A DNA stretch of 63,934 nucleotides, the filler included, from Kipferlia bialata (taxonomy: Eukaryota): assembly GCA_003568945.1 (NCBI GenBank). It is 4 parts of 4 records of this genome, joined end to end, with 100 filler letters (N's around TTAATTAATTAA, not from the genome) between each part and the next. Parts side by side here need not be neighbours in the genome. Positions count along the whole stretch, not along the records: positions 38,526 to 57,639 come from BDIP01000444.1; 3 more parts are not named here. One strand, given 5' to 3'. Positions 54,465 to 56,892 of this stretch are shown in pieces (positions within the stretch are counted from its first letter, which is position 1; each line of letters starts with the position of its first letter). Below the pieces are notes generated by a model that ran no database searches, was not told where the DNA came from, and was given only the letters and a program-made list of their open reading frames with translations. The translations under genes were made by a program, and so were the position numbers.

Positions 54465-56892
54465 CCACATCTATCTATCTATATATACACTATATCACTC
54501 ACTTCTCGTATCTGCTGGGAGCTGTCTGTGTTCTGTAGTGCAGAGACCCAGCGCTGGAGGGGTGGCCGTTGGAGCCTTGTGTGAGACATATTACATGCAC
54601 ACACACATATATATATATGAACATATAACATATGTATATACATGTATGTCCACCCACCTGTGAAGTCGATGGCAACAGACAGAGATATCTCCAGACCGGC
54701 ACCCAGATAGGCAGGCATCGAGGGGACAGTGATCTGGGGGTGAGAATAGTGTGGTAGAATATATATATACATATATTTAGAGAGAGGGAGTAAACGAGAG
54801 ATAGTGAGAGAGAGAGAACTAAGTAGGCATGGAGGGGACTGTGATCTGCGAAAGTGAAAGAGTATATAGAGTAAGGAAGCACAAATGGATATATGAGAAC
54901 ACCTTATACAGATAGCATTCACACAATCACATATATGTGAGTGCATAGAGAGAAGTGGAATACACACACGTCCTATCACCCCCCGTACCTCCTGCATCCC
55001 CTCCCTCATGTATATCTTGCCCTCTCCCTTGTAGGCCTTGCCCTTCTTGAGGCGCTTGGCACGGTTCTGATGGTTAGATACACTATATATATATATTATA
55101 TGTATCAACATATGTATGTACGGGAGGTGTAAGTTAAACATCTTCCCTCGTCATTGACTAGCATGAGTCCTGTATCGGCTGATGCATACATCTATGTCTA
55201 TATGAATACGTATGTCTATATATATACTAGGTAGTGTATTTTTAGTCTATACCTCGTCATTGACCAGCATGAGCCCTGTCTCAGGTGTTGCAGCATGGGC
55301 CAGTTCATTTAGGGTGCATGTGATGGAGCCAACGAGGTCATGCTCACCGACCATGTCGTAGTCGTAGCACTGGGGTGAGGTATACATGTATATGTGTATA
55401 CTCACATATACACATATAGGTATTATGTAAATATAGTACCAGGTCATACTCTCCATCTATATGTACTGTCTGTACCTTGATGATGAATGGTCTGTCTCTG
55501 TCCCCGTTGACCAGGTCCCCCAGTGACACCTGCAGGGTGTTCCAGGAGGGGTTGTAGTTGGACTTGATGACTAGGGTAAGTAGTGTATATATACTGATAT
55601 ATATCTATCGATCTATCTATCTATATATATATATATATATATATCTATCTATATACTGTATCTGCAGGGTGTTCCAGGAGGGGTTGTAGTTGGACTTGAT
55701 GACTGGGGTGAGGTATGTAATGCATTACTCTATCGTGGCTCCTAGTATGTCAATATCTATACACAACCACCCTCAGTCTTGGCCATAAGCAATGGGTCTG
55801 TCATGTATAGAAATGCAGATCCACTCAGATCTGTACCTATTAGTATATTATATATACGCAGGTGTACATACCCTCAGTCTTGGCTACTAGGACTGGGTCT
55901 GCGTTGCCCTCCCTAATACGGTAGAACTGGAGGTACCCATCGCACCTGGGGGTGAGATGGAGGGGGTTACGTAAGATCACCCACACGCACATACATGTAT
56001 CCTACACATACACAATACACCCACCCCTCGAACGTGTCCATCTTGGGTAGGCCCTGTGCAGATAGGGATATACACTGCAAAGTATCACCTATATACATAC
56101 TATACATATATGCACACACATATATATATACATGTGTATATACCTCCCAAATGTGTCCATCTTAGGCAGTCCCTGTGCCGACAGAGACATGACCAGGGCA
56201 CGGGAGTCACCAACACGCTCCTCACCCACCACACGCACAGAGCCTAGTATCAGTGTACTATGCAGGTATATATAATATACAATAACATACACAGAATATA
56301 AATATATTGTTAACTATATATCCACCCTCTCCTCACCCACCACACGCACAGAGCCTAGTGTTACAGGATATATATACATATACATATGTATGTACCAGTC
56401 CTCCGTACCGCACTGCTTCCTAACCCTCTCTCTGTTGTACAATGGTGCCTCCAGGGTCTGGCACATGGCATATGTATACATATATACACGTATACATATG
56501 TATCAATATTATATATACAGTCATCCGTACCGCACTGCTTGCCCTGTCTGTCCCTGTTGTACAATGGTGCCTCCAGGGTCTGACACATGGCAGTCAGCAG
56601 ATCAGCCATGCAGAAGGAGTAGGAGCCCACTACGTGTTAGATATACAGTTACATTGCTATATCTGTCTATCTGTCTATCTATAGTCCATCTATCAATATG
56701 TATATATATCTATATCTATATGTATATATGGCACATGGCAGTGAGGAGGTCGGCCATGCAGAAGGAGTAGGAGCCCACTACGTGTTAGTATATAAATGAG
56801 TGTAATATCCATCACACAAACACTGTACATACCGAAGTTGTGCTTGGACATATATATAAATATAGACATATATATATAGATACACACACATA

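What the first reader, a model, noticed from the sequence alone, without database searches (positions are those of the whole stretch)
56409..56777. Nested exon: a second version is split around the intact exon, with a 12-nt direct repeat
Seen: the acceptor-side echo (56729-56777) ends, and the donor-side echo (56409-56470) begins, with the same 12-mer TGGCACATGGCA (+ strand; 56729-56740 and 56459-56470). The central complete exon has TGACACATGGCA (56581-56592). Deleting between the repeats yields a full, in-frame alternative exon with intact AG and GT. Inference: this looks like insertion of [intron-exon-intron] into an older copy of the same exon with a target-site duplication. Alternatively the repeats could act as pointers for precise DNA- or RNA-level excision.
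Basis: partly seen in the sequence, partly recalled or inferred. Interest (0 to 1): 0.85.

Follow-up and report, generated by a model that had tools for sequence, protein, structure and literature searches.

The report
Splice-junction echoes recording swapped alleles
In a free-living protist, an intact copine exon sits between two partial copies of itself, one case of many splice-junction repeats filling these introns; their mostly silent differences suggest they are likely scars of recombination between diverged alleles, which would be indirect evidence of sex, rather than a second exon cut out on demand.

Summary
Two partial copies flank a 99-nt copine exon (gene on record as KIPB_002606, Kipferlia bialata). 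They overlap by 12 nt and join to 99 nt in frame. The spliced contig uses the central exon.

The nest is one case of a window-wide pattern: 95 end-anchored echoes in 80 curated introns, unit about 110 nt. These resemble amphioxus 'mirages' (PMC3087553), whose origin is called unclear.

Echoes decay like dead sequence, yet differ from their exons mostly at silent sites. The 0-fold/4-fold ratio is 0.30 (95% interval 0.22-0.39), below the 0.5 floor for a same-allele copy. Their intron flanks are far more diverged but keep branch-point signals. Best reading: echo and exon come from different working alleles, shuffled by unequal recombination within exons.

5' and 3' breakpoints are not coupled across 14 two-sided exons (P 0.10-0.22), so a general target-site-duplication or pointer system is unsupported. 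A single insertion remains possible here, since this exon holds the longest echo of both kinds. No second allele was found to test this directly.

The parts
56531..56629 (-). Working 99-nt coding exon of the copine gene (end of first C2 domain), phase 1 in and out
   Evidence: Exact match to protein record P0002; loose end of the spliced contig reads this exon's letters
56729..56777 (-). Acceptor-side echo: exon positions 1-49, five differences, all synonymous
56778..56788 (-). Intact branch-point-like motif and AG of the acceptor echo, skipped in the protein record
   Evidence: record P0002 uses the inner acceptor
56409..56470 (-). Donor-side echo: exon positions 38-99; changes D/E, Q/V, G/R fall in a variable loop
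56403..56408 (-). Intact GTACGG donor of the donor echo, not used in the spliced contig
56729..56740 (+). 12-nt overlap copy ending the acceptor echo
56459..56470 (+). 12-nt overlap copy starting the donor echo
56471..56728 (-). 258-nt segment between the two 12-mers: 99 nt intron-like + exon + 60 nt intron-like; does not begin GT or end AG; flanks homologous to the outer flanks
56934..56982 (-). Upstream copine exon (49 nt), itself with two acceptor echoes and one donor echo
56144..56243 (-). Downstream copine exon (100 nt), spliced directly to the central exon; has one echo on each side
55662..55702 (-). Identical 41-nt acceptor echo of exon 55570-55476 with a different intron flank; its DNA contig has about double depth and the spliced contig skips it
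50315..57323 (-). Copine gene (C2 + copine/vWA domains), 22 exons mapped; 5' end runs off the contig

Best explanation
The nest is two dead splice-junction repeats (mirage-type echoes) around a working exon, and they likely come from a different working allele than the exon does, placed there by recombination between diverged alleles. Shown: the structure, use of the central exon, decay of echoes, excess silent divergence, diverged but signal-bearing flanks, shared breakpoints within arrays. Inferred mechanism: exons are the only well-conserved islands between alleles whose microsatellite-rich introns have diverged, so pairing starts in an exon. A seed duplication would arise when copying runs into the non-matching intron and is rejoined by end-joining (one-sided repair). 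Later unequal exchanges inside the 25-45 nt exon repeat would add units and swap in other alleles' splice-side flanks while keeping the old junction. Only events that duplicate one splice site survive. An echo lacks a partner site across it and is ignored, probably through exon-definition-like splicing. For this exon I put about 60% on two separate one-sided events that happen to overlap and 40% on one captured 258-nt fragment.
For: (1) A same-allele copy predicts a 0-fold/4-fold divergence ratio of at least 0.5. Observed 108/1475 vs 90/362 = 0.295, bootstrap over 48 exons 0.22-0.39; copine 0.17; base-standardised 0.305; shifted-frame controls reverse the bias. (2) Echo-versus-echo ratio 0.355; variants not shared by all echoes 22/179 vs 35/718. 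(3) 27 echoes with no 0-fold change and intact splice site still differ at 17/109 4-fold sites and average 50% flank identity. Gapped 30-nt flank score is 6 against 0.2-0.9 for unrelated flanks and 19 for a simulated same-allele copy. (4) Acceptor flanks differ at 8.6 of 16 positions yet score 2.7 vs 0.26 under half-decay (0 of 300 simulations); YTNAC present in 62% vs 71% of working sites and 8% at random. (5) Loss of AG/GT (15 of 92) fits the 0-fold decay rate. (6) 14 of 20 arrays share a breakpoint vs 6.8 expected, P 0.0004. (7) No copine paralogue above 42% identity among the 120 listed hits. (8) Fornicates lack NHEJ and Rad51A and have two Dmc1 paralogues (PMC8516963 section 8); one-sided repair is known (PMC11930290 passage).
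Against: No second allele was found (nothing), so allelic divergence is inferred from one haplotype. Donor-flank retention is not significant against half-decay (32 of 300). Junction-side vs splice-side similarity points the right way but P is 0.11. A few echoes have near-identical flanks (2 of 27 at 90% or more) and look like plain tandem copies. Breakpoints are not enriched at intron-like 4-mers (P 0.06-0.41). Frames outside copine and kelch are hand-curated. Genes were chosen for being echo-rich, bar one control. Sex has not been observed in Metamonada (PMC8516963 passage).
Confidence: 0.55

Rival explanations
1. Ordinary same-allele tandem duplications (slippage or unequal sister exchange) across splice junctions, filtered by selection and decaying neutrally, with some conversion from the neighbouring exon.
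For: Polarity (95 of 97 hits end-anchored on the expected side), regular unit size, shared breakpoints and decay all fit. This is the usual reading of mirages (PMC3087553).
Against: It predicts a ratio of at least 0.5 and flanks about as similar as the exon part; observed 0.30 and flank score 6 vs 19. Conversion within one haplotype does not lower the floor (my derivation).
Confidence: 0.15
2. One reading: a whole intron-exon-intron piece is inserted at a staggered break in the same exon, leaving a 12-nt target-site duplication.
For: Longest echo of both kinds on one exon, P 0.006 (absolute-length null); shared C in both echoes; no overlap above 12 in 14 exons; 5 of 14 abut within 6 nt. Staggered-break repeats are reported for Daphnia new introns (PMC4202315 abstract).
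Against: P 0.16 under the relative null; no coupling or co-occurrence overall; most exons are one-sided. The shared C needs only one silent change in, or a different source for, the central exon.
Confidence: 0.13
3. The donors were near-identical paralogues or homeologues (an old hybrid or duplication) since lost, not alleles of an interbreeding population.
For: It gives the same silent-site and flank signatures. It cannot be told apart with one haplotype.
Against: No close paralogue among 120 listed proteins or as variant DNA contigs at 90% likeness. Stacks of up to four differing echoes need many donors.
Confidence: 0.1
4. Assembly artefact from merged haplotypes or strains.
For: Short-read draft with microsatellite-rich introns; two exact tandem duplicates elsewhere look artefactual; the nest's inner junctions were not covered; the DNA run may be the assembly's source.
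Against: DNA contigs of 1121, 573 and 140 nt span neighbouring echoes with 0 other letters at depth 421-446, no variant letters are listed, and the identical 41-nt repeat has depth 842. Echo-to-intron junctions would exist in neither true haplotype.
Confidence: 0.04
5. The 12-mers are pointers for programmed DNA excision or non-spliceosomal RNA joining that yields a second exon version.
For: The join is full length, in frame, has intact AG and GT, and its three amino-acid changes lie in a variable loop.
Against: The spliced contig uses the central exon, and no DNA deletion joint appears at any neighbouring echo (contigs drop rare forms). Echoes carry stops, frameshifts and hits on conserved residues. 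The 49- and 62-nt repeats offer longer homology than the 12-mer.
Confidence: 0.03

Closest known systems
Amphioxus 'mirages' (Adh3, globins BflGb6/9, PGBD5; PMC3087553 and PMC3902484, passages read)
   Same: Tandem repeats spanning a 5' or 3' exon-intron boundary; many but not all keep AG/GT; normal splicing is undisturbed; unit size of the same order (150-160 bp in globins, about 110 here).
   Different: A metamonad protist rather than a chordate. Very dense (51 of 80 curated introns). Units are not near-identical throughout: exon part about 89% identical, flanks about 45%. Silent-site excess points to different alleles. The papers call the mechanism unclear.
One-sided invasion / one-sided HDR (Puchta 1998, seen only as cited in PMC11930290 passages)
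   Same: One end resolves by homology and the other by end-joining, leaving a partial copy.
   Different: Described for induced breaks and donor DNA. Here it is inferred as a natural, recurrent process in a lineage reported to lack NHEJ, so alternative end-joining would be needed.
Staggered-break intron gain in Daphnia (PMC4202315, abstract and passages)
   Same: Short direct repeats associated with inserted intronic DNA.
   Different: There the insert is a new spliceable intron. Here it holds a copy of the interrupted exon and lacks GT-AG ends.
Copine family (PF00168 C2 + PF07002)
   Same: The host gene is a copine, 33-42% identical to the listed homologues.
   Different: Nothing unusual in the protein.
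Ciliate pointer-guided IES excision (recalled, no call)
   Same: Short direct repeats flanking a removable segment.
   Different: No excised form seen; no germline/soma split known to me for this lineage; the segment holds the working exon.

Membership tests
Mirages (splice-junction tandem repeats) | Tandem repeat unit spans an exon-intron boundary, 5' or 3' | tested here: met
   47 acceptor-side and 48 donor-side of 97 hits
Mirages (splice-junction tandem repeats) | Many but not all units keep AG/GT | tested here: met
   AG 37 of 47, GT 40 of 45
Mirages (splice-junction tandem repeats) | Normal splicing unaffected | tested here: met
   One spliced contig, 7 copine exons plus the join to the central exon, no echo used; rare isoforms not visible
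Mirages (splice-junction tandem repeats) | Minisatellite-like units similar over their whole length (81-100% in BflGb6) | tested here: inconclusive
   Arrays share breakpoints (14 of 20) and exon parts are 88-90% identical, but flanks are about 45%; fits only some units
Mirages (splice-junction tandem repeats) | Length polymorphism between haplotypes, somatic instability | not testable with these tools
   One haplotype only
Introner / mobile insertion with target-site duplication | Insert is a spliceable GT-AG unit | tested here: not met
   The 258-nt segment has no GT-AG ends
Introner / mobile insertion with target-site duplication | Dispersed family of similar copies | tested here: inconclusive
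   No distant copy in the window self-comparison; whole genome not held; species scored ie = 0 in a PMC9860276 supplement row
Mutually exclusive / alternative exon | Second version reachable by GT-AG splicing | tested here: not met
   In-frame paths give only 42-87 nt
Pointer-guided programmed excision | Excised junction present in DNA or RNA | tested here: inconclusive
   Central exon used, none seen at neighbouring echoes; nest junction itself not covered, contigs only
Copine | C2 domains plus copine/vWA domain | tested here: met
   PF00168 and PF07002 on P0002

The most novel reading that the evidence does not exclude
Much of the intron DNA in these Kipferlia genes is a stack of fossil alleles. 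Recurrent recombination between hyper-diverged alleles, with exons as the only pairing islands, piles up splice-junction copies, so one genome records past mating partners. That would give sequence evidence of sex in a free-living metamonad, a mechanism for mirages, and a natural test showing exon-definition splicing in a short-intron protist.
Probability: 0.45. Interest if true: 0.8.

Novelty: new variant of a known kind. Interest (0 to 1): 0.55.

Why it matters
Mirage origin is stated to be unclear (PMC3087553), and sex has not been directly observed in Metamonada (PMC8516963). The 0-fold/4-fold test used here works on a single genome and can be applied to amphioxus and sea urchin mirages too. 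If the allelic origin holds, intron length in these genes (rho 0.79 with echo count) is driven by recombination scars, and the spliceosome ignores intact decoy sites about 110 nt from the real ones. In practice, echoes mislead gene finders (my own model took several as exons).

Tried and rejected
No whole genome was held, so all statistics come from this window. No holder on record as RNA was listed; X2 is a guessed RNA run, though its CT..AC joints are absent from the DNA run. The reads laid did not reach the nest's inner junctions. Metagenome scans for other alleles found nothing: 47 pattern hits, none confirmed, and 0 matches. GT near acceptor-echo ends and AG near donor-echo starts are no commoner than in the exons (44 vs 46, 47 vs 49), so echoes are not mini-exons of an older two-exon layout. 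Breakpoints are not at intron-like 4-mers; the central 12-mer ranks 4 of 88 but the echo version 39 of 88. Present-day protein selection on echoes rejected: changed codons conservation 0.49 vs 0.49, 8 of 37 highly conserved codons hit. Base-composition bias rejected. Error-prone repair plus selection rejected by argument: it would need roughly 15% errors per event. No earlier notes on this genome or sequence. Literature searches found no description of such repeats in Kipferlia or any protist, nor a silent-site test of mirages (listings only unless stated; open-licence library; the original Adh3 mirage paper was not seen). Searches gave background listings only.

Full report
Setting. The window is several eukaryotic contigs joined by N linkers. 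The finding lies in a minus-strand gene. One of its exons finds a single protein, KIPB_002606 of Kipferlia bialata, with C2 and copine domains; it maps exactly onto 22 exons. A second gene matches KIPB_002599, a kelch protein. The species is a free-living fornicate with 124,912 GU-AG introns (PMC5874029, passages).

Observation. Confirmed as written: central exon 56629-56531, acceptor echo of 49 nt, donor echo of 62 nt, 12-nt overlap, joined length 99, 13 differences in 10 codons (7 synonymous; D/E, Q/V, G/R in a variable loop). Both echoes keep their splice signals. The 258 nt between the 12-mers lack GT-AG ends, and no GT/GC-AG path rebuilds the full second version. A repeat and an in-frame join are automatic for overlapping ungapped copies, so they are not independent evidence of a target-site duplication.

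Reads (2 of 2 runs, contigs only, 54480-56466). One 2767-nt contig of X2 covers 7 copine exons; five CT..AC joints are listed, a sixth follows from contiguous record positions, and its loose end after the downstream exon reads the central exon's letters, not the echo's. DNA contigs span neighbouring echoes with 0 other letters at depth 421-446, and the identical 41-nt repeat sits on a contig of depth 842. The only DNA joint listed (22-nt side) is at no echo. The nest's inner junctions were not reached, rare forms are dropped, 20 pieces and 10 loose ends were not shown, and X1 may be the assembly's source.

Window-wide pattern. I curated 80 introns in 8 exon chains: copine and kelch from protein records, the rest by phase continuity. 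Seven chains were chosen as echo-rich and one as an echo-free control; 1-19170, 47000-50200 and 57740-63934 were left out. At score 26 or more (0.9% of 5124 null comparisons; 5 reverse-strand hits) there are 97 hits: 47 exon 5' ends in the upstream intron, 48 exon 3' ends in the downstream intron, 2 internal. 51 of 80 introns have at least one, and intron length follows echo count (rho 0.79). Median unit 111-114 nt, with 26 (acceptor) or 34 (donor) nt of exon. Exon 20534 was not used as a query, and the three donor echoes of exon 28595 were dropped for an uncertain donor, leaving 92 for the tests below.

Echoes are dead. They hold stops and frameshifts, 15 of 92 have lost AG or GT, and in copine their amino-acid changes hit conserved columns as often as variable ones (119 homologues).

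But they are not plain copies. If an echo were copied from the same allele, constrained sites would diverge on one branch and silent sites on two, giving a ratio of at least 0.5 (my derivation). Observed: 108/1475 at 0-fold and 90/362 at 4-fold sites, ratio 0.295, bootstrap 0.22-0.39; copine 0.17, other genes 0.36; 0.305 after base standardisation; shifted frames reverse it. Echo-versus-echo gives 0.355. 27 echoes without any 0-fold change still differ at 17/109 4-fold sites and share 50% of flank positions. Flanks are homologous but distant: score 6, against 0.2-0.9 unrelated and 19 expected for a same-allele copy. Acceptor flanks keep near-working scores (2.7 vs 3.5; half-decay null 0.26, 0 of 300); donor flanks do not pass this test (32 of 300). 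So much of the divergence built up while both versions were working. No close paralogue appears among the 120 listed of 572 hits, lengths 285-909 only, which leaves alleles as the likeliest source.

Mechanism (inferred). 14 of 20 arrays share a breakpoint (6.8 expected, P 0.0004), and some pairs have near-identical junction sides but unrelated splice sides (scores 20 vs 0.5, 18 vs 0.5; overall P 0.11). This is what exchange inside the exon-derived repeat between alleles would leave: old junction kept, new flank brought in. The seed needs one non-homologous join, as in one-sided repair (PMC11930290, passages). Fornicates are reported to lack NHEJ and Rad51A and to have two Dmc1 paralogues, with alternative end-joining full or partial in some metamonads (PMC8516963, section 8 and passages); that Dmc1 tolerates mismatches is recalled. 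Only duplications of one splice site are tolerated, which explains the polarity. The spliced contig skips intact upstream acceptors and downstream donors, which suggests pairing of sites across the exon.

One event or two? Overlaps in 14 two-sided exons: -37, -37, -30, -27, -27, -24, -21, -7, -4, -3, 0, 2, 6, 12. Within 6 nt: 5 vs 2.8-3.3 expected (P 0.10-0.22). Co-occurrence among 72 internal exons: 14 both, 16 and 18 one side, 24 none (P 0.8). This exon is the outlier, with P 0.006 or 0.16 depending on the null. A single captured fragment is possible here, but the nest needs no special system.

Known kinds. The echoes meet three defining features, fit the whole-unit similarity only in part, and polymorphism could not be tested. 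That amphioxus and sea urchins are highly polymorphic is recalled, and would fit an allelic origin. The species scored no Introners in a PMC9860276 supplement row. My searches found no report of such repeats in Kipferlia or other protists.

Verdict. Real structure, a new variant of a known kind. The nest itself is probably a scar; the interest lies in the window-wide silent-site signature, which implies recombination between diverged alleles in a group where sex has not been observed. Interest 0.55.

Noticed in passing
window 37649-37582 (-): The acceptor next to this exon reads AT, while echoes at 37950 and 37739 keep AG; phase continuity needs this register, and an in-frame AG lies 9 nt downstream. 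How it is spliced is unknown.
   Followed up: partly
window 28595-28550 (-): At the register where three donor echoes have GT the exon's own donor position reads GA; possible non-canonical donor, gene end or broken gene.
   Followed up: partly
window 20423-20532 and 22799-22880: Exact tandem duplicates of 55 and 40 nt; the first shifts the frame inside an LRR exon. Possibly assembler artefacts.
   Followed up: partly
window 27875-19551 (-): One long phase-consistent exon chain ending in leucine-rich repeats, with up to five echoes per intron; includes a roughly 340-nt duplication of two echo units (24668-25209).
   Followed up: partly
window 43812-45920 (-): A ten-exon gene with short introns and no echoes; echo density differs sharply between genes, perhaps marking recombination hotspots.
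   Followed up: partly
window 32687-32672 and 32446-32430 (-): The end of one kelch exon resembles the start of the next and begins with GT, a possible trace of intron gain by duplication.
   Followed up: no
window 55662 (-): This identical echo ends exactly where the exon has an internal AG-GT, and the echo reads AT there; a cryptic donor may have been removed.
   Followed up: no
window 28758-28717 and 22897-22873 (-): Echoes with one-codon in-frame indels against their exons; 2 of 11 indels.
   Followed up: partly
window 2711-2902, 15994-16210, 48076-48242: Further echoes in genes left out of the counts; an 11-nt tandem array lies at about 2985-3075.
   Followed up: no
window 19171-19270, 38426-38525, 57640-57739: N44-TTAATTAATTAA-N44 linkers join separate contigs, so neighbourhoods across them are not real.
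   Followed up: yes
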